A stretch of DNA of 64,000 nt from a virus (lineage: Duplodnaviria; Caudoviricetes), in the IMG/VR virus record IMGVR_UViG_3300032310_000320, positions 10,432 to 74,431 of that record, one strand, 5' to 3'. The notes under the pieces are model-generated. The model worked only from the letters and a program-made list of their open reading frames with translations. It was not told the origin of the DNA and made no database searches. The stretch's first letter is position 1. The number at the start of each line of letters is the position of its first letter. The position numbers and the translations under genes are program-made. Shown here piece by piece: positions 85 through 37,972 of this stretch.

Positions 85-87
85 AAT

Positions 88-353: not shown

Positions 354-397
354 GCATATTCACTATCTGAACAACAGCGTTCAGACAGCTAATATGC
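354..397 (-). other. Cassette 1 5'-leader hairpin (GCUGUU loop)
   Basis: GCAUAUU-A-GCUGUCUGAAC / GUUCAGAUAGU-G-AAUAUGC. Confidence 0.8.
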
Positions 398-401
398 GGT
401 A

Positions 402-435
402 CATGTAATATGACGCATTTAAGCTTTGGATTTAG
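402..435 (-). promoter_or_regulatory. Cassette promoter-like box P1
   Basis: CTAAATccaaagcttaaatGCGTCATATTACATG; one of nine copies. Confidence 0.8.
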
Positions 436-442
436 ATGCTCT

Positions 443-488
443 GATAGCTAAAAAAAACCCACCCAAGCCCGAAGGCAAGGGTGGGTTT
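443..488 (-). terminator. Cassette terminator T2 (C-UUCG-G loop, tandem UU/UU mismatch, U8, AGCTATCAGAG)
   Basis: Hairpin plus U-tract 4 nt after the stop of 493..858. Confidence 0.9.
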
Positions 489-492
489 AAAC

Positions 493-858
493 TTAAACCG
501 ACACGCCGTCTGCCCACGTAGGGCAGCCGCATTCTCGGGCGATCTCAATCAATTGGCGAGACAGCTCAACGCTGTCTCGGCCAAACCTAAAATTTATCTT
601 ATTTGCATCTACCATGATCAACACATTTGCTGGAGTTGCGATAAGCAACTCCCAGACAGATCTTTTGGCAACGAAACCGGCGTAACCGGACGGGTTTGTC
701 GCCGCATCGCGTGCAATTGCCGTGGCAATTGCATCGTGCAATTCGTCCCACGACTCTGGAGTTTCGTTCAACGTTAGCGAGCCAAAGGCCTTTAACAGCC
801 TTTGGATTGACTCATAAACATTGCCGCGATGAAACAGTTCAACTCTAAGTTCACGCAT
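493..858 (-). CDS. Hypothetical protein, cassette 2 cargo
   Basis: ORF 493..882; start reset to ATG 858 (MRELRVE) after AGGAG. Confidence 0.75.
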   Translation of the reverse strand: MRELRVELFHRGNVYESIQRLLKAFGSLTLNETPESWDELHDAIATAIARDAATNPSGYAGFVAKRSVWELLIATPANVLIMVDANKINFRFGRDSVELSRQLIEIARECGCPTWADGVSV

Positions 859-879
859 AACAAAGACTCCTATTGAATC

Positions 880-917
880 CACACACCTCTAACCCGAAAT
901 GGCTTAGATAGCGTGTG
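880..917 (-). other. Cassette 2 5'-leader hairpin (CC-AUUUC-GG loop, bulged A)
   Basis: CACACGCU-A-UCUAAGCC AUUUC GGGUUAGA-GGUGUGUG. Confidence 0.8.
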
Positions 918-924
918 TCTTCCA

Positions 925-958
925 CATGTAATATGACGCGTTTCTGCTTCCAATTTAG
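925..958 (-). promoter_or_regulatory. Cassette promoter-like box P2
   Basis: CTAAATtggaagcagaaacGCGTCATATTACATG. Confidence 0.8.
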
Positions 959-960
959 GC

Positions 961-989
961 TTGACATTCATTCCCAACAAGACCACAAT
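961..989 (+). promoter_or_regulatory. sigma70-like promoter for 1044..1283
   Basis: TTGACA-N17-CACAAT, back-to-back with P2. Confidence 0.65.
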
Positions 990-1043
990 CCCTCTTCGCT
1001 AGGCAGGTGATTTGGTTTCTGTTTAGCTTGTTGAGGATTAGCT

Positions 1044-1283
1044 ATGTTGAAGTACGTTGCTCTCAGTTTCATATGCGTAACCGGTTTTGCCTTTGGTGGC
1101 GAAAAGGGCCAAGATGCTAAGGCTCCCGAGAAGGTCACACTTAAGTCGGCCAACAAGGTCATCGTGGAACAGAAGACCACAGAGTATGCTCCTGTCGCTA
1201 AGAAAAGGAAGTTGCTCTATCGTCCAGTCAGCGTCAAGAAGGTTGTGGGCGAAGTTGAAACCTGTCCTAACTGCAAGAAGTAA
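1044..1283 (+). CDS. Small secreted/periplasmic protein with C-terminal CxxC
   Basis: GAGGA RBS; signal-peptide-like N-terminus MLKYVALSFICVTGFAFG; ends CPNCKK; own promoter and T3 acts bidirectionally. Confidence 0.7.
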   Translation: MLKYVALSFICVTGFAFGGEKGQDAKAPEKVTLKSANKVIVEQKTTEYAPVAKKRKLLYRPVSVKKVVGEVETCPNCKK

Positions 1284-1291
1284 GTTTGGTT

Positions 1292-1341
1292 GATAGCTAA
1301 AAAAAAGCCCACCCAAGCCCGAAGGCAAGGGTGGGTTTTTT
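1292..1341. terminator. Cassette terminator T3, bidirectional
   Basis: Same core as T2; U8+AGCTATC on minus, T6 on plus; lies between convergent genes. Confidence 0.9.
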
Positions 1342-1343
1342 AT

Positions 1344-1622
1344 TTACTGGTTTGGCTGGTTACGCCAAACCCGGTCTAGTGCACCCATCGCCGCGTATGC
1401 GGCGCCTCCTATAACATAAATTACAAAAACTATACTTGCAGGAACTGGGATTGTTACCCAGTACCATAGTATCCATTCGGGTCCTTCGAAAATTTGCGGT
1501 ACCCATAAAAATTCGACTAGACTCGCCATCAATACAATTGCCGCGACTATAGCGGCAACTTTTAGCACAACACCAATTGCCGTAATATATACAGCTACAA
1601 ATTGAAACATGAAATTCTTCAT
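1344..1622 (-). CDS. Small membrane protein, cassette 3 cargo
   Basis: Two hydrophobic stretches; start reset to ATG 1622 (MKNFMFQ). Confidence 0.7.
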   Translation of the reverse strand: MKNFMFQFVAVYITAIGVVLKVAAIVAAIVLMASLVEFLWVPQIFEGPEWILWYWVTIPVPASIVFVIYVIGGAAYAAMGALDRVWRNQPNQ

Positions 1623-1638
1623 AGCCGAATCCCCCAAT

Positions 1639-1683
1639 AACAACTACGCCACCAAACCGAAGTGGTCTGATGGCGTAGTCGTC
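1639..1683 (-). other. Cassette 3 5'-leader hairpin (20-bp stem, CC-ACUUC-GG loop)
   Basis: GACGACUACGCCAUCAGACC ACUUC GGUUUGGUGGCGUAGUUGUU. Confidence 0.85.
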
Positions 1684-1685
1684 TA

Positions 1686-1719
1686 CATGTATTATGACAC
1701 GTTACTGGGTTGGATTTAG
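1686..1719 (-). promoter_or_regulatory. Cassette promoter-like box P3
   Basis: CTAAATccaacccagtaacGTGTCATAATACATG; begins 1 nt after the csrA stop. Confidence 0.8.
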
Positions 1720-1720
1720 G

Positions 1721-1906
1721 CTAGCTGACTTCCCCTATTTCGGGCAGTAACTCTTCCCTGATAATGTTCAAGGAAGGATCAGCCGCTATGCCTATTCTTG
1801 CCGTTCTGTCGGGTGCGTCTATGTTCACCAGCATCAGGACAATATCAGGTTTATTGTCCTGCCTGAGAATAATCCTCTGGCCAATCTTGCGGGTGAGTAC
1901 AAGCAT
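1721..1906 (-). CDS. csrA: CsrA/RsmA-family translational regulator
   Basis: MLVLTRK N-terminus, RIGIAAD and IIREEL match the CsrA fold including the RNA-binding Arg of REE. Confidence 0.85.
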   Translation of the reverse strand: MLVLTRKIGQRIILRQDNKPDIVLMLVNIDAPDRTARIGIAADPSLNIIREELLPEIGEVS

Positions 1907-1913
1907 CCATACC

Positions 1914-2366
1914 TCACGAAAGAGTTACCATCTGATTGAACTTAAATAGCTTCTTGAAAGACTGCTTGTGCTTTTCCATTTCTTTCAAGAAGGGTACAAG
2001 AGCTTTGGCAGTAACTGGGTCATCGTAGAAAGAAAAGAGTTGGACCTTGTTGGCGATGGCACCTACAGCGGCAATGACTATGTTGTGGGCACTGCAAATC
2101 TGATTGTTGATCCTTTTGCCAGCGTTCCCAATGATCGTGACTTCAATTCTTTTGCAAGGAACAGATGCCAAGTCAATCTTGCTGTTAATGCAATGCTTGG
2201 GATCTATTACCTCAAACATGTCAGCCAAAGATTTGAAATAATCACAACCAATGCGGGCAGGGCCATCTGTCCAATATTCAACTCTCCACGTGAAGTAAGG
2301 CTTGGAAACTTTAGGCTTGGATTTGGTTTTAGAAACTTTGGACTTTGGCGCTTCAACCTGTGACAT
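1914..2366 (-). CDS. Hypothetical protein, Lys-rich N-terminus, co-transcribed with csrA
   Basis: ORF with GGAGG RBS; stop 7 nt before the csrA start. Confidence 0.75.
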   Translation of the reverse strand: MSQVEAPKSKVSKTKSKPKVSKPYFTWRVEYWTDGPARIGCDYFKSLADMFEVIDPKHCINSKIDLASVPCKRIEVTIIGNAGKRINNQICSAHNIVIAAVGAIANKVQLFSFYDDPVTAKALVPFLKEMEKHKQSFKKLFKFNQMVTLS

Positions 2367-2425
2367 GCGACCTCCATGTGAGAAACAATAAACACTTATA
2401 ACGAGTTTGGGTTACTCGTGGAGGA

Positions 2426-2454
2426 AGTTTAAAAGTAATAAGATGAGGAGTCAA
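2426..2454 (-). promoter_or_regulatory. sigma70-like promoter for the 2366/csrA operon
   Basis: TTGACT-N17-TAAACT; the -35 starts right after TAGCTA of T4. Confidence 0.65.
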
Positions 2455-2504
2455 TAGCTAAAAAAAAGCCTACCTAAGCCCTAAGGCAAAGGTAGGCTTT
2501 TTTT
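2453..2504. terminator. Cassette terminator T4, bidirectional
   Basis: Variant of T1-T3 (GCCTACC/GGTAGGC stem); U8+AGCTATT on minus, T7 on plus. Confidence 0.85.
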
Positions 2505-2706
2505 AATGGCCCATGATCTCCATGAGCCATTTCCACTCATCGGCGCCTTCGTAGGGAAGACTTACTTCCCGCACTTGCCAGTTTCCATACTGCGCAGCGG
2601 CCTTCTGGGCCGCTGCGCGCGATGCATACTGCTGGGGATATGGTCCCCATTCAGCATTCCGATATGCGTTGGTGGCAAGATCAGAAACTAGGATGTACAC
2701 TTTCAT
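2503..2706 (-). CDS. Hypothetical protein, cassette 4 cargo
   Basis: Start reset to ATG 2706 (MKVYILV) after AGGAG. Confidence 0.7.
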   Translation of the reverse strand: MKVYILVSDLATNAYRNAEWGPYPQQYASRAAAQKAAAQYGNWQVREVSLPYEGADEWKWLMEIMGH

Positions 2707-2728
2707 CTCACGACTCCTAACCGAATCC

Positions 2729-2764
2729 ACACACCTCTAAACCGAAATGGCCTAGATAGCGTAT
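2729..2764 (-). other. Cassette 4 5'-leader hairpin (CC-AUUUC-GG loop, bulged A)
   Basis: AUACGCU-A-UCUAGGCC AUUUC GGUUUAGA-GGUGUGU. Confidence 0.8.
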
Positions 2765-2772
2765 AGCTTTCA

Positions 2773-2806
2773 CATGTATTATGACGCGTTTTTGGGTTGG
2801 ATTTAG
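2773..2806 (-). promoter_or_regulatory. Cassette promoter-like box P4
   Basis: CTAAATccaacccaaaaacGCGTCATAATACATG. Confidence 0.8.
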
Positions 2807-2814
2807 GCTCACCT

Positions 2815-2865
2815 AATAGCTAAAAAAAAGACCACGAACACAGGACTAGCCTGTGTCGTGGTCTT
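2815..2865 (-). terminator. Cassette terminator T5 (bulged stem, U8, AGCTATT)
   Basis: CCACGAACACAGGACTAGCCTGTGTCGTGG, identical core to T7. Confidence 0.85.
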
Positions 2866-2868
2866 AGA

Positions 2869-3510
2869 CTATTTTTTGCGGGGGCGACGGGGAATTTCTT
2901 CCCCAGTATGCGTAATATAAATCACGCCACTTTCTTTTGACTCAGGCGCGCGGGCCTTGTCGAGGGCCGCCACCAAATCTTGCGACAACGCCATATCGGC
3001 GTTGGGCGCGTTGATAACAAACACCCACCGGCGGGGTTTGACTTCGCGCACGGCGAAGTCTATTGACGGCATGATCTTGCCGTCAAGGTAGATCCAAGTT
3101 GGACCTACCACCAGTTCCCAAGCTCCAAGCATCGGAGCCTCGGGAACACCCTTTTTTGCGGCAATGGCCGCGCGGGTTTCGAGCGGCACCGACAGCTTGG
3201 GGCCTTCGATTATATCAAAGGCCCCTCCTTGCTCGTTCATGCATCTCCGGGTTGAGCCCGGAGATGGTTTCTCAAGTTCTGCGAGCGCTTGCTCGCAGAG
3301 TTTCACCAATGCCCTCTCAGACTTTAAGTCTGCAAGGGCATTGGTTACGTCAGCTCTTAAAGCTGACGTAAGTGAAACCTCAGCTTCATATCGCTTCTCC
3401 CAGTGAGCGGCGCGATATTGCAATTCGTTGATTTGCACCGCAGCATTAGCGGTGTAAATCAGAAAAGTTGCCGCAAGCGCGAGCGCCAAACCCAAGATGA
3501 AATCCTTCAT
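2869..3510 (-). CDS. Membrane-anchored coiled-coil protein, cassette 5 cargo
   Basis: N-terminal hydrophobic helix then heptad-like region; start ATG 3510 after GAGGAG. Confidence 0.75.
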   Translation of the reverse strand: MKDFILGLALALAATFLIYTANAAVQINELQYRAAHWEKRYEAEVSLTSALRADVTNALADLKSERALVKLCEQALAELEKPSPGSTRRCMNEQGGAFDIIEGPKLSVPLETRAAIAAKKGVPEAPMLGAWELVVGPTWIYLDGKIMPSIDFAVREVKPRRWVFVINAPNADMALSQDLVAALDKARAPESKESGVIYITHTGEEIPRRPRKK

Positions 3511-3535
3511 CGTGGTACTCCTCACACAGCCAAGT

Positions 3536-3565
3536 CACCTCTAACCAGAAATTGGTTTGATAGCG
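3536..3565 (-). other. Cassette 5 5'-leader hairpin (A-AUUUC-U loop, bulged A)
   Basis: CGCU-A-UCAAACCA AUUUC UGGUUAGA-GGUG; loop-closing pair is A-U instead of C-G. Confidence 0.75.
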
Positions 3566-3576
3566 TATGGCCGTCT

Positions 3577-3610
3577 CATGTTATATGACGCGTTTCTAGC
3601 TTGGATTTAG
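3577..3610 (-). promoter_or_regulatory. Cassette promoter-like box P5
   Basis: CTAAATccaagctagaaacGCGTCATATAACATG; its TAA is the stop of the 3607 ORF. Confidence 0.8.
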
Positions 3611-3816
3611 TTTGTGTTTGCGTTGCCACCCTTAGGATCTTCAGCCATGTCAGCTTCCATCCACAGGTTCCATTTCTTAACCACTCTTCTGCCTTTGTAG
3701 TAAAGCACAGGCGTGGACAACTTACCTTCGTAATCAACCCACATCAAAGAATAGTCAGACGTCAATTCAACATCCACACCATCCACACTCAACAACTGAT
3801 ATTTCACGCCAGACAT
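3607..3816 (-). CDS. Hypothetical protein
   Basis: Start reset to ATG 3816 (MSGVKYQ) after GGAGGT. Confidence 0.6.
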   Translation of the reverse strand: MSGVKYQLLSVDGVDVELTSDYSLMWVDYEGKLSTPVLYYKGRRVVKKWNLWMEADMAEDPKGGNANTN

Positions 3817-3892
3817 ATCACCTCCACAAAAAAGAAACAGGCGGGGAATTGTACCCCCACCTGTAAGAAAAACATACCACTTTTTCTTAGAC

Positions 3893-6214
3893 CTAGAACG
3901 CGCAGGCACCACCAACACATGCATAATTCTGCGCCGATTCCGTTTGATCGTCATCTTCGTACTGACACAACTTGGACCAATCCACCACAGGGAAATCCTT
4001 GGAGAACATAGCGTACTGTTCTGGCGTTAATTCCTCATTGGGTGCGTGCTTGTACACACCATTATCTTTAGGAAGGAAACTGAGGCCTGTGATTTCATCG
4101 AAGTGATCATAGACCCAAGAGCCGACTTGAAACCACTCATAGGGCTCCACATAAATAGTCGCGGATACAGAATGCTCGGCCCAGTTACGTTTCCAGCAGA
4201 GCCAGTTTTCCAGTTGTTCAATGGCCGTCATGGAGTTACGTGTGAGACAACCATCAGGAGCAGTCTTGGGGAAACCAAACACGTACAAGTCATTAGGCCT
4301 TTCGGGAGAATCATGGTACGGAACGCCTTGGTCAATTAGGAACTTGGCCACAGGTGAATGCTTTGATTCTCTTACCCACCTGATTTGCCTGTCTGCGTAA
4401 CGAGGACTAACACCAGAAGCACAATCAAAGAACACGCTGCTGTCGCCTCCCGGTTTGATGCACGTGTCAGCCGCCGAACGAGAAATACCAAAGCGCCGAG
4501 TAAGGGCTTCATTGGTTTCGTTAACGACTGCTTTGAGTTTGCGGAGAAGCTCAGGTCTGTTGGGATGTGATGGATGTAGAAGAGGACAATCAGCATGTCC
4601 CGTAATATCCACACCCAGAAGCGCTTCCTCCTCACAGTTCCTACGCCACTGGTCTCTGATGTAATTGAAACGAGTACACGTGGCCTGCATGGTACCGAAG
4701 TAAGTCGCAACAAGGACTTTCTTCATGAGAGTCGTTTCAGTGTCGTCAGGTCTGGCTACAGCAATAGAAAGGTTGCAGAACTCATAGGGTCTAAGTTGAA
4801 TTTCACCGCATGGGTTAAAGCCCCAATCATGTCCCTTCTGCCTACGCTCGGGTGCCTGCATATCCATGGCTTGGCGATTGCAAATACCACGTTCGCCTGA
4901 GTAACTACGAATGAGGGACAGCCACTCATCCATGAACACGTCAGTTGAAGGTTTGGAATGGTACACGGCTGAGTTGTTGGCCATGCTGCGATGCTTGTTG
5001 TCTATGTACCACTGACCCGACTTAGCAGAACGCATTTCATGGCTGCCCAAGTCAGACAATGAAATAAGAGCTGCGCGTCGTACACCACCTACCTGCACAA
5101 TGTTGCCAATCATGCAGCAGATGTCGTGAACGTCTATGTCACTGAGATGACGGGTTTGACGGGACAATACAATCCGTCTGATGAAAGTCATTAATTCATG
5201 GAATGGCTCTGGTCCTGATGCACGTCCGCCTTTGGTCTTGAGACGTGTGCCTTTGGGCCTGACAGCCGACGTGTCGAGAATAAAGTCACGCCCCTGAAAC
5301 AGAAATTCAAGACAGTGGAACAGAGCATCACACCATCCCTCTGTGCTGTCCTCAACCACAACCGAAATGGGAAGTTCACCCGTCTGCTTGGCGATACGAG
5401 GTAACGTAGAAATTTGATCGTACTCAACAGAAAACCCCATTCCTGTACCTTGCATAAGTACATATAGCAACTCGGCGAATGAGCGCAGGTCGGTAATTGG
5501 CGCGTAGGCACAATTATACACACCCACATGACATCTTTCGAGTGCAGGTCCAGCCATCTGCACCACACGCATAGCAGGTGATGCCTCTAGCTGATACATA
5601 GATTTGGAAAGCATATCCCATTCATCTTGGGTCAGTTTGTTCTTGACCTTAGGAAGATTCTGGAACCAAGGGATGACACGGTTGAATACAGTTTCCTTCC
5701 AAGTCTCGCGGCGTTTCTCGGTGTCATTCCAGCGAGAGAACTTGCCAATAAATTGGTAATACTGTAGATCCGTCTGAAAGTGAGTACGGTCCTCGGATAC
5801 CGCCGAAGCATACGCCGTTGGAACTGGGCGATTGAGTCTGGCTCTGCGCCTGTCTTCTCTGTAGTTCTGGTAGTGTTCTGCAAACTCAGAGAGGCTTGTG
5901 ATCCAGAGTTGGGCAATGATGGTTCTTTGAATCTCTTCAACATCGATAGGACCCGTTGCGTTTCGTGTGATTAGCCCCAAAACTACATACTCAAGAATAG
6001 GATCGACATCAGGCATAGCCACGTTCTGTTCAGATACCACGTTGTTGAAACACCTGAGAAGAGCAGCTTTGATCTTCTCAATGTCAAAAGCAACAATCGA
6101 GCCATCCCTCTTGCGAACTGTCCAACCTTTAGTTGATTCAGCAATGGGTTGTTCGAGCTTCTCAAGAAACTCAGGTTGAACAGAACGTACACGGTAAGGT
6201 GAATAAGTTTGCAT
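3893..6214 (-). CDS. nrdJ: Class II (adenosylcobalamin-dependent) ribonucleotide reductase with N-terminal ATP-cone
   Basis: VRKRDGS ATP-cone; YNCAY, GTGMGFS, GGVRRAALISL, NPCGE, FCNL, IKPGG and C-terminal ACVGGAC; likely start MQTYSPY at 6214. Confidence 0.92.
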   Translation of the reverse strand: MQTYSPYRVRSVQPEFLEKLEQPIAESTKGWTVRKRDGSIVAFDIEKIKAALLRCFNNVVSEQNVAMPDVDPILEYVVLGLITRNATGPIDVEEIQRTIIAQLWITSLSEFAEHYQNYREDRRRARLNRPVPTAYASAVSEDRTHFQTDLQYYQFIGKFSRWNDTEKRRETWKETVFNRVIPWFQNLPKVKNKLTQDEWDMLSKSMYQLEASPAMRVVQMAGPALERCHVGVYNCAYAPITDLRSFAELLYVLMQGTGMGFSVEYDQISTLPRIAKQTGELPISVVVEDSTEGWCDALFHCLEFLFQGRDFILDTSAVRPKGTRLKTKGGRASGPEPFHELMTFIRRIVLSRQTRHLSDIDVHDICCMIGNIVQVGGVRRAALISLSDLGSHEMRSAKSGQWYIDNKHRSMANNSAVYHSKPSTDVFMDEWLSLIRSYSGERGICNRQAMDMQAPERRQKGHDWGFNPCGEIQLRPYEFCNLSIAVARPDDTETTLMKKVLVATYFGTMQATCTRFNYIRDQWRRNCEEEALLGVDITGHADCPLLHPSHPNRPELLRKLKAVVNETNEALTRRFGISRSAADTCIKPGGDSSVFFDCASGVSPRYADRQIRWVRESKHSPVAKFLIDQGVPYHDSPERPNDLYVFGFPKTAPDGCLTRNSMTAIEQLENWLCWKRNWAEHSVSATIYVEPYEWFQVGSWVYDHFDEITGLSFLPKDNGVYKHAPNEELTPEQYAMFSKDFPVVDWSKLCQYEDDDQTESAQNYACVGGACAF

Positions 6215-6257
6215 ACCAAGCCTCGTAGACACAGAACAAAATTGGAGTGGAGAAGCC

Positions 6258-6285
6258 ATTCTAAGGGAGACCCCCCGAGCGTCAA
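6258..6285 (-). promoter_or_regulatory. sigma70-like promoter for nrdJ
   Basis: TTGACG-N16-TAGAAT just after T6. Confidence 0.55.
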
Positions 6286-6296
6286 GCAAAGTCTCT

Positions 6297-6342
6297 GATA
6301 GCTAAAAAAAGGAACACTGGAGGGTTTAAACCCCAGTGTTCC
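6297..6342 (-). terminator. Cassette terminator T6 (bulged stem, U7, AGCTATCAGAG)
   Basis: GGAACACTG / CAGTGTTCC outer stem with an asymmetric bulge. Confidence 0.85.
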
Positions 6343-6352
6343 TCAGAAAGTT

Positions 6353-6616
6353 CTAAGCCGCATTCCATGCAGCCAGAACTTCCTTTCCGCTGTAAATTAC
6401 CCCGTCAGGGGTAACAGCGGCGACGTCCCCGCAAGGGGACATGTGAAACTTAAAGCCTAAGGCTTTAAGTTTCACAAGGATTTGCACAGACGCGCCCTCG
6501 GTAGGGCGCCCCTCGCGCTGTAGCAAAGCAGCGAAATACATCGCTGCTTTGCTGAAGTTCTTAGCCTGAAAGTGCTTTTGCACTTTCAGGCCCAAGAAGA
6601 TTTGATTGCAAAGCAT
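6353..6616 (-). CDS. Hypothetical protein, cassette 6 cargo
   Basis: GGAGG RBS; enclosed by P6 and T6. Confidence 0.75.
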   Translation of the reverse strand: MLCNQIFLGLKVQKHFQAKNFSKAAMYFAALLQREGRPTEGASVQILVKLKALGFKFHMSPCGDVAAVTPDGVIYSGKEVLAAWNAA

Positions 6617-6629
6617 TGCAATCCTCCAT

Positions 6630-6671
6630 GCGTAACATTACCCAAACAACAGCGTTTGGATAGCGTTACGC
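6630..6671 (-). other. Cassette 6 5'-leader hairpin (GCUGUU loop)
   Basis: GCGUAACG-C-UAUCCAAAC GCUGUU GUUUGGGUA-A-UGUUACGC; same loop as cassette 1 with a different stem. Confidence 0.8.
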
Positions 6672-6675
6672 GCCT

Positions 6676-6709
6676 CATGTTATATGACGCAGTTTTGCTG
6701 TGAATTTAG
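6676..6709 (-). promoter_or_regulatory. Cassette promoter-like box P6
   Basis: CTAAATtcacagcaaaactGCGTCATATAACATG. Confidence 0.8.
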
Positions 6710-6717
6710 GTTTAGCC

Positions 6718-6768
6718 AATAGCTAAAAAAAAGCCCACGAACACAGGACTAGCCTGTGTCGTGGGTTT
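6718..6768 (-). terminator. Cassette terminator T7
   Basis: Core identical to T5; U8+AGCTATT. Confidence 0.85.
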
Positions 6769-6772
6769 TGGA

Positions 6773-7153
6773 TTAGGTTATCTTAATGCCCTCCTTTTGG
6801 AGCATGTCAAGCCTTTGGTTTTCTTCCTTCATTTCTTCGGCGCTCAGTATCGTGGGCCGAACCCAGACATCGCTTACGTAGCCCTTTATGGGCCCTAAAC
6901 TTCGAGCGTCCGTAGACGCCCTCACCCACAATTCCTTTGTCAGTGCGTCAATTAGGATTACGCGACCATATGAGTCGCGTAAGTTTGTGTTGAACATCGA
7001 TCTGTTATTAATGTCTTGACACTGCGCTCGTGAGAATTTAATTCTCAATATCTCTCTGTATCGGGATGCCAACACCGTTCCGGTGCCGTGGCGGACGGGG
7101 ACAAAATTCACATTTTGAATTTTATTCAGAAAGTCTGCGATTGTACGGATCAT
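6773..7153 (-). CDS. Hypothetical protein, cassette 7 cargo
   Basis: Start reset to ATG 7153 (MIRTIAD) after AAGGAG. Confidence 0.75.
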   Translation of the reverse strand: MIRTIADFLNKIQNVNFVPVRHGTGTVLASRYREILRIKFSRAQCQDINNRSMFNTNLRDSYGRVILIDALTKELWVRASTDARSLGPIKGYVSDVWVRPTILSAEEMKEENQRLDMLQKEGIKIT

Positions 7154-7174
7154 GACGATACTCCTTCTAAAGCC

Positions 7175-7210
7175 ACACACCTCTAAACCGAAATGGCTTA
7201 GATAGCATAT
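7175..7210 (-). other. Cassette 7 5'-leader hairpin (CC-AUUUC-GG loop, bulged A)
   Basis: AUAUGCU-A-UCUAAGCC AUUUC GGUUUAGA-GGUGUGU. Confidence 0.8.
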
Positions 7211-7218
7211 GGCTTTCA

Positions 7219-7252
7219 CATGTATTATGACGCGTTTTTGCTGTGGATTTAG
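7219..7252 (-). promoter_or_regulatory. Cassette promoter-like box P7
   Basis: CTAAATccacagcaaaaacGCGTCATAATACATG; its TAA is the stop of the 7249 ORF. Confidence 0.8.
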
Positions 7253-7698
7253 GGCTTCATGATTTGAGCGAGAACAGCCCAAAGAGACATGACGAGTGTG
7301 GCTACCATGCTGGCCACCGCAGTTACGATCTGACCTTTAGTGACTGTCTTGGCAGTCTGAAAATTGTCTACGGCTTTCTTGACATCTTCCACGCACGATT
7401 TCATGTCATCAATGTCTGCTTCGATGTGTTGCAAACTAGCTTCTACTTTGGTGAGCCTGTCCATGATGGATGGCTGCCCGTTACCGTCGCGAATGATCTT
7501 GAACAATTTGCTTTGGTTGTCGTTGTAGTTCTTAATGTTGGAATCAATAAGCTTGATCTGAGTAACGACTTCTCCCAATCTTTCTTGGTTGGTAGCGACA
7601 GATGATTTAAGGTCAGTCAGATCTTTTGTGATATGCAATACGTTGTTGGACGTGGTTGTAATCAGCGAGATCATTTCCTGTGTTGCTGACGGTGCCAT
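7249..7698 (-). CDS. Coiled-coil protein with C-terminal membrane anchor
   Basis: Heptad pattern plus hydrophobic tail IVTAVASMVATLVMSLWAVL; start MAPS after GGAGG. Confidence 0.7.
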   Translation of the reverse strand: MAPSATQEMISLITTTSNNVLHITKDLTDLKSSVATNQERLGEVVTQIKLIDSNIKNYNDNQSKLFKIIRDGNGQPSIMDRLTKVEASLQHIEADIDDMKSCVEDVKKAVDNFQTAKTVTKGQIVTAVASMVATLVMSLWAVLAQIMKP

Positions 7699-7977
7699 CA
7701 GTCGTGCCTCCAAGAAAGTCCGTTGAATAGATCTCTTCGAGTTCCCCACTGCCCGAAGTACCGATGCTTGTACAAGACAAGCCGAAGAGACGCTAAAAGG
7801 CGTGCGTTCCCTTCACCACCTCGATCCCGGTCTTCTCACCATGGATCAGCCCGTGAATACGCATAAAGCGAATTCCACATCACCAACCGACGCCTGCGGT
7901 AAACCTATCCAACAGACTTAATGATTGTACCTTAGGCGCGGAGTTACACCGAATGTACGTGACGTGGTTGAAATAAA

Positions 7978-29662: not shown

Positions 29663-29669
29663 GTGCAAC

Positions 29670-31540: not shown

Positions 31541-31557
31541 GCTTACCTCGAATTAAC

Positions 31558-32217: not shown

Positions 32218-32321
32218 AGCAGCTTACTCACAATAAATAAAATTAATTTACTTAAAACGCCGGACATGCTTCGTATTGTACGGCATGCCCGGCGTTTTAA
32301 AGAAAAGCTAGAACTTAATGT

Positions 32322-32837
32322 TTAATCTGAGTCAACAGAGTTACCCAAATCGTTTTGACGTTCAAGTTCCTCGGCCCGACGCCGTTGCATTTCAAGTGCA
32401 TGCGCATTTGAAGGTTTTTGCGTATCCAACGATCTTGGTATTGCCGCTTGACGGTGATATTCCCTAATTTTGGCAACCGCAGGATCAACTGGACGCGGCG
32501 GCACGGGAGTTGGACGCAACGGATCTGGTCGTTGCGCAATCTCAGCTAATCTAAGATCCCTGTGATGTTTGTTAACGGGATTATTTCCTGAGGGTTTAAA
32601 CGGGATCGTAGTATTGGGTTTAGACCCTTGCAGTTCTGCGGGCGGGCCGACAAATTTATTAGGTTGCCATGCATTTGCTGGATCTTGCGTAGCTTTATTA
32701 AACTGTGAAAACATGTTTAAATTTGCCGATGGTTTTGCTGGAGCCTGAGGTCCTAGCAAAGGACCGTTCATAGCCGTCTTCTCAAACACAGATCTACTTG
32801 CTAATGCACCCAAATCAAACGCCGTCATAGTACGCAT
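32322..32837 (-). CDS. Pro-rich probable virion protein with TAFDLG motif
   Basis: Start MRTMTAFDLG after AAGGAG. Confidence 0.65.
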   Translation of the reverse strand: MRTMTAFDLGALASRSVFEKTAMNGPLLGPQAPAKPSANLNMFSQFNKATQDPANAWQPNKFVGPPAELQGSKPNTTIPFKPSGNNPVNKHHRDLRLAEIAQRPDPLRPTPVPPRPVDPAVAKIREYHRQAAIPRSLDTQKPSNAHALEMQRRRAEELERQNDLGNSVDSD

Positions 32838-32847
32838 ATCTATCTCC

Positions 32848-34767: not shown

Positions 34768-34775
34768 GCTGCCAT

Positions 34776-34790
34776 TCCTTATAAGTGCTT
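34776..34790 (-). promoter_or_regulatory. Candidate late-promoter motif AAGCACTTATAAGGA
   Basis: 8 nt upstream of the portal-candidate ATG. Confidence 0.55.
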
Positions 34791-34796
34791 ATTGAA

Positions 34797-34973
34797 TTAC
34801 TTGCGGCGGCAGGCATCCGCAGCTTCGTCCATCAACCGGGAAGCTATGTGCTGATCCACGGCGGACTCGGCTTGCTTCTCTGTAGAACAAGCACTGCCAC
34901 ATTTACCCGAACAACCCTTTTGGATGGGACTGTCGGGTGTCTGCTCAGTAATAATACCGCGCTTTTCAATCAT
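34797..34973 (-). CDS. Small 58-aa protein absent from the ORF track
   Basis: GGAG RBS; MIEKRGIITEQ...GCSGKCGSACSTEKQAES...DACRRK*; fills the intergenic gap. Confidence 0.6.
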   Translation of the reverse strand: MIEKRGIITEQTPDSPIQKGCSGKCGSACSTEKQAESAVDQHIASRLMDEAADACRRK

Positions 34974-34985
34974 GACAGGACTCCA

Positions 34986-36068
34986 TCAATCATCTACATC
35001 TTCAACGTCATCTTTATCTACTGTAACAAGGATGATGCAGTCAAACACGCCGAACGCAAACTTAAGCCCGAAATACTTGGTGTCGTATATGGTGTCCTTC
35101 TCCTTAGTCTTGTTGGGCTTGGGTGCCGGAACAATGACTTTGAGAGGCAAACCATCGGGATGTGTTTCGTGATTGTAGGGTGGGCAAAACTGTTGGCCGT
35201 CAGCGTAGCGCGTGTCATATACAAGGACCACGCAGCCATCTCCGGCAAAAATACCGTGGAACCAAGTAGACATAGACCCAAAACCGGGGAGCTCGATAAA
35301 GACCTGAGTCTTGGCCTTTTGAGGATTAGGCCCAGTCACGAAAGGAATTTCCAAAGCCTCGTAACCCATGCTGCCACTTACGTCTGGTGCATCTTCTGAC
35401 ATGACAGGCTCCTCAGGTGTAACGATCTTTTTAACAGGGGAAGGCGCTGATTCGGATCTGGGCATGTTGGCTTGCATCATGGCTGCAAGTTGAGAAACTT
35501 GCGCCATAAGTTGAGCCATGACTAATTGATTGGGATCAGTAGCCGGAGCAGCTTGAGGTAAAGGTGCGGGTCCGCCGATAGGTGGCAACACCGGTTCCAT
35601 GTTTGTCGTGGCATTGGCAGGAATGACATAGGCTTCGGGACTACCTTCACTATCGGCCTTGGGCACGATGTAGGTATTGGGCATCAAGTGGTTTGCCCTG
35701 TCCGCTTTGGCCGCTGGTTTTTTAGTGGCCAATTTCTTGGATGCACTGAGTTCAGCAAAGATCTTGACGGGATCTTCTGCACCGTGCTTAGCGAATACAC
35801 GTTGATATGTGGCTTTGTCAATGTTGGCTAAATCCACGACAATGTTGCCACCCTTCTCGTCAGGGTCCACGCAAACAACATCAGGAACGTTGTGATCAAA
35901 GCCTTTACTGCGTCCGTCATTCTTGCCGTAAGAACCGGGAATGACAGCGTAATCTCCCGTAATACCGCCCCCAAGCAAATACCTTTGTCTATCATCCGGC
36001 TGATGATAATGCGCGTCATCAGGGGTGAAACGCTTGGTACCCTCAGGCAACACCATCGGATCAGACAT
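34986..36068 (-). CDS. Hypothetical protein (Pro/Ala-rich linker)
   Basis: 360-aa ORF with GGAG RBS and own promoter. Confidence 0.75.
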   Translation of the reverse strand: MSDPMVLPEGTKRFTPDDAHYHQPDDRQRYLLGGGITGDYAVIPGSYGKNDGRSKGFDHNVPDVVCVDPDEKGGNIVVDLANIDKATYQRVFAKHGAEDPVKIFAELSASKKLATKKPAAKADRANHLMPNTYIVPKADSEGSPEAYVIPANATTNMEPVLPPIGGPAPLPQAAPATDPNQLVMAQLMAQVSQLAAMMQANMPRSESAPSPVKKIVTPEEPVMSEDAPDVSGSMGYEALEIPFVTGPNPQKAKTQVFIELPGFGSMSTWFHGIFAGDGCVVLVYDTRYADGQQFCPPYNHETHPDGLPLKVIVPAPKPNKTKEKDTIYDTKYFGLKFAFGVFDCIILVTVDKDDVEDVDD

Positions 36069-36100
36069 GCGTTAAATACTCCACAAGGTTAATAGCTGCA

Positions 36101-36129
36101 AGTGTATGAAGGAAGGGGTTTTGGTACAA
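36101..36129 (-). promoter_or_regulatory. sigma70-like promoter
   Basis: TTGTAC-N17-TACACT just after T8. Confidence 0.55.
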
Positions 36130-36141
36130 GTTCGGTTCTCT

Positions 36142-36191
36142 GATAGCTAAAAAAAAGACTAGGACACCCGGGAGTTACCCGGATGTCCTAG
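36142..36191 (-). terminator. Cassette terminator T8 (internal mismatch, U8, AGCTATCAGAG)
   Basis: CTAGGACA / TGTCCTAG outer stem, CCGGG/CCCGG inner stem. Confidence 0.85.
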
Positions 36192-36199
36192 CCTAAACA

Positions 36200-36448
36200 T
36201 TAGTTGTTCAGCATCAAGTGCTGAACTGCTTTAAGAGTTTCAATTAACAAATGGCGCGCGCCATTTGTTAATCGGCCCTCCTCGGTCCATCTAATTTGCC
36301 CGCAGGGCAAATTAGACTTGGCCGCTGAAGCAGCGGCCTTGAACAATTTCTGTTCTGAGGGCGTCATTTCAACGCCCTCTATCAGTCCTGTTACTATGTA
36401 TGCCGCCTCAATGGCGGCGTGATCCGAAACTAGAACTTCGCTGTGCAT
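36200..36448 (-). CDS. Hypothetical protein, cassette 8 cargo
   Basis: Start reset to ATG 36448 (MHSEVLV) after GGAGG. Confidence 0.7.
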   Translation of the reverse strand: MHSEVLVSDHAAIEAAYIVTGLIEGVEMTPSEQKLFKAAASAAKSNLPCGQIRWTEEGRLTNGARHLLIETLKAVQHLMLNN

Positions 36449-36468
36449 TGCGAAACCTCCACTCAAGA

Positions 36469-36505
36469 GCCAGTAGTCCTTACTGGCGCACAGGTAAATA
36501 CCTGT
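36469..36505 (-). other. Cassette 8 leader: two short hairpins, the second with an AGGAC loop
   Basis: ACAGGUA-UU-UACCUGU; GCCAGUA-AGGAC-UACUGGC. Confidence 0.7.
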
Positions 36506-36506
36506 A

Positions 36507-36540
36507 CATGTTATATGACGCATTTTTGCTGCGAATTTAG
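36507..36540 (-). promoter_or_regulatory. Cassette promoter-like box P8
   Basis: CTAAATtcgcagcaaaaatGCGTCATATAACATG; its TAA is the stop of the 36537 ORF. Confidence 0.8.
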
Positions 36541-36749
36541 CTGCGTGGTTTGTAGGGTGTCCAGTCTTCTGCGACTGTGCACCAACGCCGAGCATCCTTC
36601 TTAGCCATAATTACATTCGTGACTTTGCAATAATTCACGGCGCCACACTTACAGGCATCATCGAACATGCTGTAGAGATGCAATGATTCAGGCGTAGGAT
36701 CATCAGGTGCGATTACAACTTTCTTGCACACAGAACATTGAACCACCAT
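36537..36749 (-). CDS. Small Cys-rich (Zn-ribbon-like) protein
   Basis: CSVC and CKC..C; CAGGAG RBS. Confidence 0.65.
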   Translation of the reverse strand: MVVQCSVCKKVVIAPDDPTPESLHLYSMFDDACKCGAVNYCKVTNVIMAKKDARRWCTVAEDWTPYKPRS

Positions 36750-36773
36750 GACGATCTCCTGTGATTACACGCA

Positions 36774-36801
36774 ATGGTAGTTTATTAAAACACCTGTGCA
36801 A
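36774..36801 (-). promoter_or_regulatory. sigma70-like promoter
   Basis: TTGCAC-N16-TACCAT; the -35 starts right after TAACTA of T9. Confidence 0.4.
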
Positions 36802-36847
36802 TAGTTAAAAAAAAGATCCCGTCCAAGCCCGAAGGCAAGGACGGGAC
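36800..36847 (-). terminator. Cassette terminator T9 (T2 family with compensated stem)
   Basis: CCCGTCC/GGACGGG replaces CCCACCC/GGGTGGG; same UU-GCC-UUCG-GGC-UU core; U8+AACTATT. Confidence 0.88.
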
Positions 36848-36855
36848 CTAATCGC

Positions 36856-37914
36856 TTAGGACGCAAGGATGTTGCGTTCAAAAGCAAGGTCGATCACTAA
36901 TCCTCCGGGATACCGGAGGAATGGAGTATCCCACCCCTCCGTAATTACGGGAGGCGTGAGAACAAATGTGTCCGCCTCCTCCAAGTAATTATCCTGCACG
37001 AGGCTTGTCACCTCATAGCAGTGCCCGTTGGAACTAGGAAGTTCCAACAGACCGCGCCCCGCAAGGCGGGTGGGGAACAACATGTCCCCACCCGCAAGCT
37101 GCACGCCTTGAGCGCGCAACCAATCACAAAGGACATCGACGGTATCACCGCCGATGTGGTTAATAATTTCCTGCCACCCTGCGGTGGCACGATTGTTAGT
37201 AACGTCCCAATTGGACAATGGCGGCCGTTGACCGGGCAACAGTCCGAGCGATGCCGCAACGGCGACCTCGCTAATTAAAACCCGGGGGAAATGATTCCCC
37301 TCCCAGACAGCGGCGTTCAAGAACGCCTCTATCAAATCCGCCGGAACCCGGCACATTGGCACGGGTTCCCCCTGCCCTTTTGGTTGATACGGGATAACTT
37401 TACCCTCGAAAGGGTTGATTAAGATTTGCCCCGGGGCAAACTCAATCCCTGCCTCTTTGAGGTCCGACACAAACATGGGACGCAGATCGTCCCATGTTGC
37501 GCGGACCGTTGCCGCAGTGGACATTGCAACGTCCACGGCCACCGCCGCCACGAACTGGCGTGGTGCCAGTTCGTGGTCAAGATTGACGTTTCGCCATCCC
37601 ACCGCATCGGTGGTGGCGTTCATGCCCCCAACGTAGGGGCCGAACGGCAAACAGCGAATAATCGCTGCCGTGGGCCGTGTGCCGGCGTACTGCCGGCCAT
37701 CCAAGAAGGCTGGCGGTGCGTCTTGCACCACCAGCCATTCCCCCGAGGTGACAAAGCACCTCGAGTTGACCATTTCGATGGAATCGGCCATAAGGCCGAT
37801 CCCAACATTGCCTCGGTATTTACCGAGGACAAGGTCATGGTGCCATCCGAAGATGGCCTGCGCGCCCTCGATGGCGCCATCAAGTTTAGAAACCACGGTC
37901 GCATCCATAGCCAT
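36856..37914 (-). CDS. Hypothetical protein, cassette 9 cargo (GC-rich)
   Basis: Start reset to ATG 37914 (MAMDAT) after GGAG. Confidence 0.75.
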   Translation of the reverse strand: MAMDATVVSKLDGAIEGAQAIFGWHHDLVLGKYRGNVGIGLMADSIEMVNSRCFVTSGEWLVVQDAPPAFLDGRQYAGTRPTAAIIRCLPFGPYVGGMNATTDAVGWRNVNLDHELAPRQFVAAVAVDVAMSTAATVRATWDDLRPMFVSDLKEAGIEFAPGQILINPFEGKVIPYQPKGQGEPVPMCRVPADLIEAFLNAAVWEGNHFPRVLISEVAVAASLGLLPGQRPPLSNWDVTNNRATAGWQEIINHIGGDTVDVLCDWLRAQGVQLAGGDMLFPTRLAGRGLLELPSSNGHCYEVTSLVQDNYLEEADTFVLTPPVITEGWDTPFLRYPGGLVIDLAFERNILAS

Positions 37915-37935
37915 CTTAAAGACTCCAAATGCATA

Positions 37936-37972
37936 CGACCGCTGCTCATCCGAAGTGGATAAACAACGGTCG
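37936..37972 (-). other. Cassette 9 5'-leader hairpin (16-bp stem, CC-ACUUC-GG loop)
   Basis: CGACCGUUGUUUAUCC ACUUC GGAUGAGCAGCGGUCG. Confidence 0.85.

What the first reader, a model, noticed from the sequence alone, without database searches (positions are those of the whole stretch)
354..37972. Family of 5'-leader RNA hairpins with conserved loops and compensatory stems
Six leaders carry an A(U/C)UUC pentaloop (880, 1639, 2729, 3536, 7175, 37936) on stems of very different sequence; loop-closing pairs covary (C-G vs A-U), and four share a single bulged A 8 bp below the loop. Two others (354, 6630) share a GCUGUU hexaloop on different ~17-bp stems. Keeping the loop while rewriting the stem implies selection on an RNA structure. 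It could be a protein-binding operator (MS2-like bulged A plus loop), an antitermination nut-like site, an RNase III substrate or a 5' stabiliser. It ends just upstream of each SD.
Basis: partly seen in the sequence, partly recalled or inferred. Interest (0 to 1): 0.8.

Follow-up and report, generated by a model that had tools for sequence, protein, structure and literature searches.

The report
Hairpin leaders of phage early-gene cassettes
Nine small genes of an uncultured giant phage of planctomycete bacteria each begin with the same promoter followed at once by a long RNA hairpin, and most of the genes are packed with further hairpins, which most likely makes these messages hard for the cell's RNA-degrading enzymes to attack.

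Summary
All nine copies of a conserved promoter-like block (CTAAAT-N13/14-GYGTCATAWWACATG, minus strand) are followed within 0-8 nt by a hairpin that ends 1-10 nt before the Shine-Dalgarno sequence.

- **RNA-level selection:** about 40 distinct relatives from viral and lake or marine metagenomes show compensatory changes. The sense strand folds better than the antisense in 40 of 40.
- **Overstated claims:** most leaders are paralogues (73% column identity) with a conserved 5'-arm box. The loops vary as much as the stems (AUUUC, ACUUC, AAUUUC, UGUC, UAUC, GCUGUU).
- **New here:**
  - The promoter motif recurs almost only in Planctomycetota chromosomes, which points to the host.
  - The record is a 36% fragment of a roughly 200 kb phage.
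  - The cassette coding regions are also saturated with conserved hairpins (z down to -18), unlike neighbouring genes.
- **Best reading (about 0.4):** portable early-gene cassettes whose messages are protected by structure, with the leader acting as a 5'-terminal stabiliser. An RNase III site, a protein or RNA-polymerase recognition element, and DNA-level palindromes remain open.
- **Not supported:** nut-like boxA, MS2-like operator, sigma-28 promoter.

The parts
354..397 (-). leader hairpin, cassette 1: about 18 bp with two 1x1 internal loops, GCUGUU loop
   Evidence: MFE -24.8, z -4.6; homologue L048 differs by 3 double compensatory changes in the lower stem and 4 one-sided pairing-preserving changes (sequences)
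880..917 (-). leader hairpin, cassette 2: AUUUC loop, unpaired A, one G.G mismatch
   Evidence: z -5.1
1639..1683 (-). leader hairpin, cassette 3: 20 bp without bulge, ACUUC loop (AUUUC in relatives L060, L081)
   Evidence: MFE -33.9, z -7.6
2727..2766 (-). leader hairpin, cassette 4: AUUUC loop, unpaired A
   Evidence: z -4.2
3526..3574 (-). leader hairpin, cassette 5: AUUUC loop closed by A-U, core 3536-3565
   Evidence: z -2.4, the weakest of the eight
6630..6671 (-). leader hairpin, cassette 6: 17 bp, GCUGUU loop
   Evidence: z -3.8; identical in L004, L020, L059, L060
7169..7216 (-). leader hairpin, cassette 7: 21 bp, AUUUC loop, unpaired A
   Evidence: z -6.7
37936..37972 (-). leader hairpin, cassette 9: 16 bp, ACUUC loop, stem unlike the others
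   Evidence: z -5.4; same leader before a different ORF in L003 and L044
402..435 (-). promoter-like block, cassette 1
925..958 (-). promoter-like block, cassette 2
1686..1719 (-). promoter-like block, cassette 3
2773..2806 (-). promoter-like block, cassette 4
3577..3610 (-). promoter-like block, cassette 5
6676..6709 (-). promoter-like block, cassette 6
7219..7252 (-). promoter-like block, cassette 7
36507..36540 (-). promoter-like block, cassette 8
37975..38009 (-). promoter-like block, cassette 9 (14-nt spacer)
88..336 (-). cassette 1 ORF, 82 aa, no family
   Evidence: structure z -1.8
493..858 (-). cassette 2 ORF, 121 aa, no family; hairpin-rich
   Evidence: z -3.5
1344..1622 (-). cassette 3 ORF, 92 aa, hydrophobic N-terminus
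   Evidence: z -2.6
2503..2706 (-). cassette 4 ORF, 67 aa; hairpin-rich
   Evidence: z -4.8
2869..3510 (-). cassette 5 ORF, 213 aa; saturated with hairpins
   Evidence: z -16.4
6353..6616 (-). cassette 6 ORF, 87 aa; chain of about 8 hairpins kept in place in homologues
   Evidence: z -10.3
6773..7153 (-). cassette 7 ORF, 126 aa; hairpin-rich
   Evidence: z -6.6
36200..36448 (-). cassette 8 ORF, 82 aa; hairpin-rich
   Evidence: z -7.4
36856..37914 (-). cassette 9 ORF, 352 aa; saturated with hairpins
   Evidence: z -17.9
444..490 (-). intrinsic terminator of cassette 2 (approximate limits): GC-rich stem, UUCG loop, T8 then AGCTAT. Like ones lie at about 41-87, 1293-1340, 2454-2500, 2816-2865, 6298-6345, 6719-6765, 36143-36195 and 36801-36850

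Best explanation
The hairpins are the 5' untranslated regions of nine self-contained expression cassettes. Each cassette is a promoter, a leader hairpin, an SD, one small orphan gene and a strong terminator. They belong to an uncultured jumbo phage that infects a planctomycete.

Transcription most likely starts 1-2 nt after the conserved ACATG. This is inferred, not mapped. On that reading the message begins almost directly with a 15-21 bp stem-loop and leaves only the ribosome-binding site single-stranded.

The proposed mechanism is inferred. A base-paired 5' end denies a single-stranded 5' end to the host's 5'-end-dependent decay route (RNase E/G, after pyrophosphate removal). The hairpin-packed coding region leaves few single-stranded entry sites. 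The GC-rich terminator hairpin blocks 3' exonucleases. The whole message is therefore protected by structure.

Because the leader folds on itself, it also keeps the ribosome-binding site free whatever gene is placed behind it. That suits a cassette which is shuffled between genes. On this reading the shared loops, the bulged A and the 5'-arm box are mainly inherited from a common ancestral cassette. The box may carry a second, promoter-linked function.
For: SHOWN.
- Nine of nine promoter blocks are followed by a hairpin whose base lies 0-8 nt after ACATG, most often 2 nt. The hairpin ends 1-10 nt before the SD. The distance from ACATG to the start codon is 53-68 nt.
- The pairing is kept by compensatory change.
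- The pairing depends on the strand. The sense hairpin averages -25.5 kcal/mol and the antisense -16.6. The sense strand is better in 40 of 40, and 17% of pairs are G-U.
- The ninth leader has only two 7-bp hairpins, yet the first again starts 1 nt after the block. The common feature is therefore a paired 5' end, not a long duplex.
- Cassette coding regions are far more structured than codon-order shuffles: z -16.4, -17.9, -10.3, -7.4, -6.6, -4.8, -3.5, -2.6 and -1.8. The 28 other genes range from +1.2 to -3.3. That set includes same-region neighbours that lack this promoter (orf1721, orf1914, orf3607, RNR, orf7249).
- 19 of 23 perfect hairpins in the record lie in the two cassette regions, against about 1 expected overall.
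- In relatives, gene bodies behind hairpin leaders have median z -3.9, against -1.3 for the rest.
- In four homologues of cassette 6 about nine hairpins keep their places. Eight pairs show double changes. The start-codon hairpin exists in three sequences at the cost of amino-acid changes.
- One leader type precedes unrelated ORFs in relatives. The cassette ORFs have no Pfam family and only one weak PHROG hit.
- The five planctomycete genomes tested, all carrying the promoter motif, each encode an RNase E/G-family enzyme. None shows the RNase J C-terminal domain.

FROM ESTABLISHED KNOWLEDGE. 5'-terminal stem-loops stabilise E. coli mRNAs (Emory, Bouvet and Belasco 1992; Bouvet and Belasco 1992; both listed in the review PMC3997798).
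Against: - No transcription start site is mapped. The start is inferred only from where promoter conservation ends and from sigma-70-like spacing.
- A stem of 15-21 bp is much longer than 5'-end protection needs, and it is in the size range of RNase III substrates.
- Seven of 40 leaders leave 7-8 nt unpaired before the main stem. That would weaken 5'-end protection unless weak outer pairs form.
- The A(U/C)UUC loop recurs on two unrelated stems (1639 and 37936). The 5'-arm box is more conserved than its pairing partner: summed entropy 1.3 against 3.6 bits. Both hint at sequence-specific recognition that pure stabilisation does not explain.
- The hairpins inside genes are perfect Watson-Crick palindromes, equally stable on both strands. 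They could act at the DNA level.
- The leaders are paralogues, so the covariation counts are not independent events.
Confidence: 0.4

Rival explanations
1. RNase III processing sites. The long leader duplex is cut by host RNase III, as in the early region of phage T7 and the lambda N leader. This would give a mature 5' end next to the SD and set the stability or translation of the message.
For: - Stems of 15-21 bp, several close to two helical turns, interrupted by a single unpaired A or a 1x1 loop, as in T7 sites.
- All five planctomycete genomes tested encode RNase III.
- The stems are longer than 5'-end protection needs.
Against: - The ninth leader has only 7-bp hairpins and could not be a substrate.
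- Stem length and bulges are not held constant among relatives.
- Cleavage would leave a monophosphorylated, single-stranded 5' end, which in RNase E organisms usually speeds decay.
- No RNase III gene was found in the phage fragment, though the fragment is only 36% of the genome.
Confidence: 0.17
2. A sequence-specific recognition element. The loop and/or the 5'-arm box is bound by a phage or host protein, or by RNA polymerase itself. It would act as a translational operator, as a loading site for antitermination (nut-, put- or LoaP-leader-like), or as a promoter-proximal pause signal.
For: - The CC-A(C/U)UUC-GG apex recurs on unrelated stems (1639, 37936).
- The box in the 5' arm is more conserved than its partner.
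- A similar box (about TTAGCYATC) lies 8-13 nt after ACATG in many independent leaders that lack the hairpin, including chromosomal ones. 21 of 61 match with at most 2 mismatches, against about 2 expected.
- In four other contigs the same promoter runs into a hairpin followed by a U-tract, which is a promoter-proximal terminator (L022, L045, L063, L091).
Against: - The box is not boxA of these bacteria.
- Loops change to UGUC, UAUC or AAUUUC in orthologous leaders, and the bulged A is absent from three types.
- Every cassette has its own promoter and its own strong terminator, so read-through is not obviously needed.
- No NusG-like, sigma-70 region 2 or T7-type polymerase gene was found in the fragment.
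- There was no Rfam match.
Confidence: 0.17
3. DNA-level palindromes. The inverted repeats in the leaders and the genes act in DNA, for example as cruciforms, recombination hot spots that shuffle cassettes, or products of template-switch 'perfecting' of quasi-palindromes. Any RNA folding is then a by-product.
For: - The hairpins inside genes are perfect Watson-Crick palindromes with no strand bias.
- Template switching copies a change from one arm to the other, which mimics compensatory evolution.
- Cassettes are clearly shuffled, and one relative carries a leader that looks chimeric (L012:6345-6405).
Against: - The leader hairpins carry 17% G-U pairs and fold much better as sense RNA in 40 of 40 cases. 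A DNA-templated process would not produce that.
- Hairpin density follows the promoter class, not the region. Neighbouring orphan genes with other promoters are not structured.
Confidence: 0.1

Closest known systems
PeSLs (promoter-early stem-loops), the composite terminator/promoter cassettes of T4-like phages (PMC2839356, PMC4122927)
   Same: - Conserved regulatory modules flank small orphan genes in a variable early region.
- A terminator stem-loop stands just before a conserved early promoter.
- The same module stands in front of different genes in close relatives, which implies modular shuffling.
   Different: - In a PeSL the stem-loop is the upstream terminator. Here there is an additional long hairpin downstream of the promoter, in the 5' UTR.
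- The promoter is not the sigma-70 consensus.
- The host is a planctomycete and the phage is a jumbo phage unrelated to T4.
- The coding regions are themselves hairpin-saturated, a feature the PeSL passages read here do not mention.
5'-terminal stem-loop mRNA stabilisers (E. coli ompA and papA leaders; the stem-loop at the start of phage T7 gene 10 transcripts; own knowledge plus the reference list of PMC3997798)
   Same: A stable hairpin sits within a few nucleotides of the inferred 5' end. The SD is left free. The sequence is free to vary as long as pairing is kept.
   Different: - The stems here are two to three times longer.
- They form a recognisable sequence family with a conserved box.
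- They come with structured coding regions.
- The 5' end is not mapped, so membership is inferred.
RNase III processing sites of the phage T7 early region (R0.3 and others) and of the lambda N leader (own knowledge)
   Same: Phage early transcripts carry an interrupted duplex of about 20 bp between the promoter and the first ribosome-binding site.
   Different: T7 uses them to cut one long polycistronic transcript. Here every gene has its own promoter and terminator. Cleavage is untested, and one leader lacks a long duplex.
Lambda nut sites (boxA plus boxB) and the HK022 put RNAs (own knowledge)
   Same: A promoter-proximal RNA hairpin with a pentaloop stands next to a short conserved box.
   Different: - boxB is a 5-bp stem with a purine-rich GNRA-like pentaloop. 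Here the stems are 15-21 bp with pyrimidine-rich loops.
- The box lies inside the stem.
- The box differs from the boxA found in planctomycete rRNA leaders.

Membership tests
PeSL cassettes of T4-like phages | strong sigma-70-like early promoter | tested here: not met
   The conserved block is not picked up as a sigma-70 consensus. rRNA promoters of the candidate hosts are TTGACT-N17-TATAAA.
PeSL cassettes of T4-like phages | stem-loop that acts as terminator directly upstream of the promoter | tested here: met
   A conserved intrinsic terminator with T8-AGCTAT ends each cassette and directly precedes the next promoter in three cases. This is not the hairpin of the finding.
PeSL cassettes of T4-like phages | flank orphan genes and mediate modular shuffling | tested here: met
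   The cassette ORFs have no Pfam family and one weak PHROG hit. One leader type stands before unrelated ORFs in relatives.
5'-terminal stem-loop stabiliser | hairpin within about 0-4 unpaired nt of the transcript's 5' end | tested here: inconclusive
   The hairpin base is 0-8 nt (mode 2) after the end of promoter conservation.
5'-terminal stem-loop stabiliser | host has a 5'-end-dependent decay route | tested here: met
   RNase E/G is present in 5 of 5 planctomycete genomes that carry the promoter motif. The RNase J C-terminal domain is present in 0 of 5.
5'-terminal stem-loop stabiliser | hairpin lengthens mRNA half-life | not testable with these tools
   Needs half-life measurements of wild-type and stem-mutant constructs.
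RNase III substrate | coaxial duplex of about two helical turns | tested here: inconclusive
   15-21 bp in eight leaders and 7 bp in the ninth.
RNase III substrate | specific cleavage by RNase III | not testable with these tools
   The hosts encode the enzyme. There are no cleavage data.
lambda-type nut site | boxA matching the host's NusB/S10-binding boxA | tested here: not met
   Planctomycete 16S leaders carry GATCTTTGAMAA. The leader box is ACGCYATC or TTAGCYATC.
lambda-type nut site | boxB: short stem with a GNRA-like purine pentaloop | tested here: not met
   Stems are 15-21 bp and loops are AYUUC, GCUGUU or UGUC.
MS2-type coat-protein operator | tetraloop with a bulged A two pairs below it on a short stem | tested here: not met
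   The unpaired A lies 8 pairs below a 5-nt loop and is absent in three leader types.
any Rfam family | match at or near the gathering score | tested here: not met
   No hit at gathering thresholds in the window. Only chance-level hits at E 0.2-5 in 1-7400.
sigma-28 (FliA) promoter | same motif upstream of flagellin genes of the host phylum | tested here: not met
   None of nine flagellin upstream regions in five planctomycete genomes carries the motif.

The most novel reading that the evidence does not exclude
The unit under selection may be the whole transcript rather than the leader alone. On this reading, messages started from this promoter class are kept almost fully double-stranded from the first nucleotides to the terminator. 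That would let them escape an RNA-directed host activity in the first minutes of infection by a jumbo phage. Candidate activities are Rho loading, direct-entry RNase E, toxin or abortive-infection RNases, and guide-RNA-based defence such as type III CRISPR.

The promoter and its downstream box would then be a transcription signal specific to mobile elements across Planctomycetota. It is shared by jumbo phages and integrated elements. Its reader would be a factor not yet identified.
Probability: 0.2. Interest if true: 0.75.

Novelty: new variant of a known kind. Interest (0 to 1): 0.55.

Why it matters
- **Host and early genes of an uncultured phage.** Almost nothing is known about gene expression in phages of Planctomycetota, and no close relative of this phage was found among 50,697 GenBank phage records. 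The work gives a testable host assignment. It also identifies the probable early genes of a roughly 200 kb phage clade found in lakes and seas.
- **A compact natural expression cassette.** The cassette has a promoter, an insulating 5' hairpin, an SD and a terminator. It could be tried as a genetic part in planctomycetes, where tools are scarce.
- **A case for studying mRNA armouring.** Hairpin density follows the promoter class rather than the genomic region, and it overrides amino-acid conservation. That is unusual for protein-coding phage genes. If armouring against decay or defence holds up, this would be a clear natural example.

Tried and rejected
- **Rfam:** nothing at gathering thresholds, and only chance-level hits at relaxed thresholds.
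- **Close relatives among cultured phages:** none by DNA. DNA polymerase identity is at most 25%.
- **Sigma-70 consensus scan:** it does not flag the conserved block.
- **nut-like reading:** rejected on boxA and on boxB geometry.
- **Sigma-28 reading of the promoter** (TAAA-N15 spacing resemblance): rejected, because flagellin upstream regions lack the motif.
- **Housekeeping-promoter reading:** rejected, because rRNA promoters in the same genomes are canonical.
- **Hairpin as part of the promoter class as such:** rejected. Chromosomal copies of the promoter have unstructured leaders, with median z 0 and no excess 5' pairing.
- **Known RNAs behind the chromosomal promoters:** none directly downstream.
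- **Phage-encoded RNase III, sigma-70 region 2, NusG or T7-type polymerase:** not found in the fragment. This says little, because the fragment is 36% complete. The T7-polymerase search also rang in none of its 14 control genomes, so it is uninformative.
- **Not used:** structure prediction, complex prediction and the large protein searches. The cassette proteins were not the question.

Full report
**What is in the window.**
- All long ORFs run on the minus strand.
- A conserved block, CTAAAT-N13/14-GYGTCATAWWACATG, occurs nine times on that strand. In plus-strand coordinates the cores start at 402, 925, 1686, 2773, 3577, 6676, 7219, 36507 and 37975.
- A pattern search allowing 2 mismatches finds 9 hits against 1.3 expected, all of them exact. 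In the whole 74,431-bp record no further copy appears on the gene strand even with 3 mismatches.
- Each block is followed by a leader, an SD, an ATG and one small ORF. Each ORF ends at its own strong intrinsic terminator.

**The hairpins.**
- Folding the 55-61 nt after each block gives one long hairpin in eight leaders: 15-21 bp, MFE -19.7 to -33.9 kcal/mol, z -2.4 to -7.6.
- The ninth leader (36507) has two 7-bp hairpins.

**Relatives.**
- Megablast found no similar GenBank phage.
- Scanning public collections with the promoter pattern found 13 viral stretches, 69 metagenomic stretches and 23 stretches from bacterial genomes.
- Many viral and lake or marine contigs carry the same leaders. I collected 40 distinct hairpin leaders.
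- A covariance model built from 34 of them finds 58 hits in the window and the relatives.

**Is the structure selected?**
- Sequence-only alignment: 80.2% of cells form standard pairs, against 30-48% when partners are slid by 1-3 columns. Nine of 21 pairs change on both sides. The covariation score is 0.236 against 0.179 for shuffles (0 of 500 reach it).
- Model-fitted alignment: 13 of 21 pairs have double changes.
- One clean natural experiment compares the leader at 354 with its homologue in L048. Three of seven lower-stem pairs are replaced on both sides. All four changes in the upper 3' arm keep pairing through G-U or G-C.
- The hairpins fold better as sense RNA than as antisense in 40 of 40 cases: mean -25.5 against -16.6 kcal/mol, with 17% G-U pairs. 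This argues for RNA rather than a symmetric DNA site.
- Caveat: the leaders are paralogues and orthologues of one ancestor, so the counts are not independent events.

- The leaders form a sequence family with 73% mean column identity. The 5'-arm box ACGCYATC is nearly invariant.
- The loop is no better conserved than the stem.
- Loops among relatives are AUUUC 19, ACUUC 9, GCUGUU 3, UGUC 3, AAUUUC 2, UAUC 2, GCGGUU 1 and UGC 1.
- The bulged A is missing from the 1639, 37936 and 354/6630 types.

**The promoter and the host.**
- Of the 23 genome hits, 21 are Planctomycetota: Bremerella, Planctomicrobium, Zavarzinella, Rhodopirellula, Gimesia, Novipirellula, Gemmataceae and others. The host is therefore very probably a planctomycete.
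- The motif is not the housekeeping consensus, because rRNA promoters in these genomes read TTGACT-N17-TATAAA. It is not found upstream of flagellin genes either.
- The chromosomal copies stand before short transcripts that end in terminators and before genes of unknown family. In Planctomicrobium they stand next to a large serine recombinase and a ThiF-family gene, which indicates an integrated mobile element.
- These chromosomal leaders are not structured: median z is 0 and there is no excess 5' pairing. The long hairpin is thus an addition made by the phage clade.
- What they do share is a box of about TTAGCYATC, 8-13 nt after ACATG. It matches in 21 of 61 independent leaders with at most 2 mismatches, against about 2 expected. 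In the phage leaders this box forms part of the 5' arm.

**The phage.**
- The record is an IMG/VR contig that CheckV rates 36% complete.
- Relatives of 186 kb (86% complete) and 219 kb (98% complete) carry the same promoter. They also carry an ORF with a strong RNA polymerase beta domain (E 4e-54 and 1e-52), but no sigma-70 region 2.
- The window encodes ribonucleotide reductase, a family A DNA polymerase, helicases, a UvsX-like recombinase, PhoH, ThyX and an exonuclease.
- I cannot say whether the host polymerase or a phage polymerase reads the cassette promoter. The two-block layout with 17-bp spacing and an invariant G at -14 favours a sigma-70-family holoenzyme. That is inference.

**Portability.**
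- The same leader type precedes unrelated ORFs. The 1639-type stands before a membrane-like protein here and before two other proteins in L049, L058 and L081. The 7175-type stands before at least four different N-termini.
- The cassette ORFs have no Pfam family and only one weak PHROG hit.
- This matches the logic of the PeSL cassettes of T4-like phages. There, however, the stem-loop is the upstream terminator.

**The unexpected part.**
- The cassette coding regions are themselves full of hairpins. Perfect Watson-Crick hairpins (stem at least 9 bp) number 23 in the record against about 1 in shuffles. Nineteen lie in the two cassette regions.
- Against codon-order shuffles, mean folding energy gives z of -16.4, -17.9, -10.3, -7.4, -6.6, -4.8, -3.5, -2.6 and -1.8 for the nine cassettes. 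The 28 other genes range from +1.2 to -3.3.
- That comparison set includes same-region genes that lack this promoter: orf1721, orf1914, orf3607, RNR and orf7249.
- Relatives behave alike.
- In four homologues of the 87-codon gene at 6353-6616 about nine hairpins keep their positions. Eight pairs show double compensatory change. The hairpin at the start codon has three different sequences and changes the N-terminal residues. All four homologues still keep an 87-codon open frame.
- These intragenic stems show no strand bias, so the level at which they act is open.

**Mechanism.**
- The reading that covers most facts is a structure-protected message: a paired 5' end, few single-stranded internal segments and a strong 3' hairpin. 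The leader would double as an insulator of the ribosome-binding site in a shuffled cassette.
- The candidate hosts have RNase E/G and RNase III but not the RNase J C-terminal domain.
- 5'-terminal stem-loops are known stabilisers (references in PMC3997798).
- I put this at about 0.4. The rivals are an RNase III site (0.17), a specific protein or polymerase recognition element (0.17) and DNA-level palindromes (0.1). The remainder is unassigned.
- The transcription start, the half-life effect and any cleavage are all untested.

**Earlier notes of this scan.**
My count of nine was made before that look-up.
One search confirms three of its promoter positions.
- A follow-up on another planctomycete genome described a prophage small RNA of about 85 nt with its own strong promoter (e1-3792975). 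The short terminated transcripts I saw behind the chromosomal promoters may be of that kind. I did not test this.

Noticed in passing
window 557-6982 and 36243-37576: The coding regions of the promoter-bearing cassettes are saturated with perfect inverted repeats. Nineteen of the record's 23 lie here, against about 1 expected overall. Folding z-scores reach -18, while neighbouring genes with other promoters are ordinary. The hairpins keep their places in homologues through compensatory changes that alter amino acids.
   Followed up: partly
L084-L106 (for example L103:3490-3780, L088:6916-7200, L097:7146-7270): The same 34-nt promoter motif occurs in chromosomes of many Planctomycetota (21 of 23 genome hits). 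It often appears as tandem pairs driving short transcripts that end in terminators. In Planctomicrobium it lies beside a large serine recombinase and a ThiF-family gene, so it looks like a signal of mobile elements across the phylum.
   Followed up: partly
8-13 nt after ACATG in the leaders; also window 444-457, 1293-1306, 2454-2467, 2816-2829, 6298-6310, 6719-6732, 36143-36156: A short box (about TTAGCYATC) recurs downstream of the promoter in phage, metagenomic and chromosomal leaders. Eight strong phage terminators end in T7-8 followed by AGCTAT; two more have close variants (AACTAT at 36801, AGCTGT near 41-87). Its role is unknown. It is not the boxA of these bacteria.
   Followed up: partly
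G006:167577-168554 and G007:54556-55575 (relatives of 186 and 219 kb): The near-complete relatives encode an ORF with a strong RNA polymerase beta domain (E about 1e-54), so the clade is a jumbo phage with polymerase genes of its own. The window's record is only about 36% of such a genome.
   Followed up: no
L022, L045, L063, L091: In four other contigs the same promoter runs, after about 10 nt, into a hairpin followed by a U-tract. That is a promoter-proximal terminator, and in L091 it stands ahead of an SD and a gene with a weak, sub-threshold DUF2997 match.
   Followed up: no
window 6258-6285 and 2426-2454: The ribonucleotide reductase gene and the ORF at 1914-2366 have ordinary sigma-70-like promoters (TTGACG-16-TAGAAT and TTGACT-17-TAAACT). 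Their leaders have no long hairpin and their coding regions are not unusually structured.
   Followed up: partly
window 961-1283: A candidate plus-strand ORF (79 aa, hydrophobic N-terminus) lies in the cassette region, with a sigma-70-like promoter (TTGACA-17-CACAAT). It ends at the terminator at 1293-1340, which would then work in both directions.
   Followed up: no
L012:6345-6405: A leader in the 186 kb relative looks chimeric. Its 5' end resembles the 3536-type leader, while its hairpin and 3' end resemble the 1639-type. This suggests recombination inside leaders.
   Followed up: no
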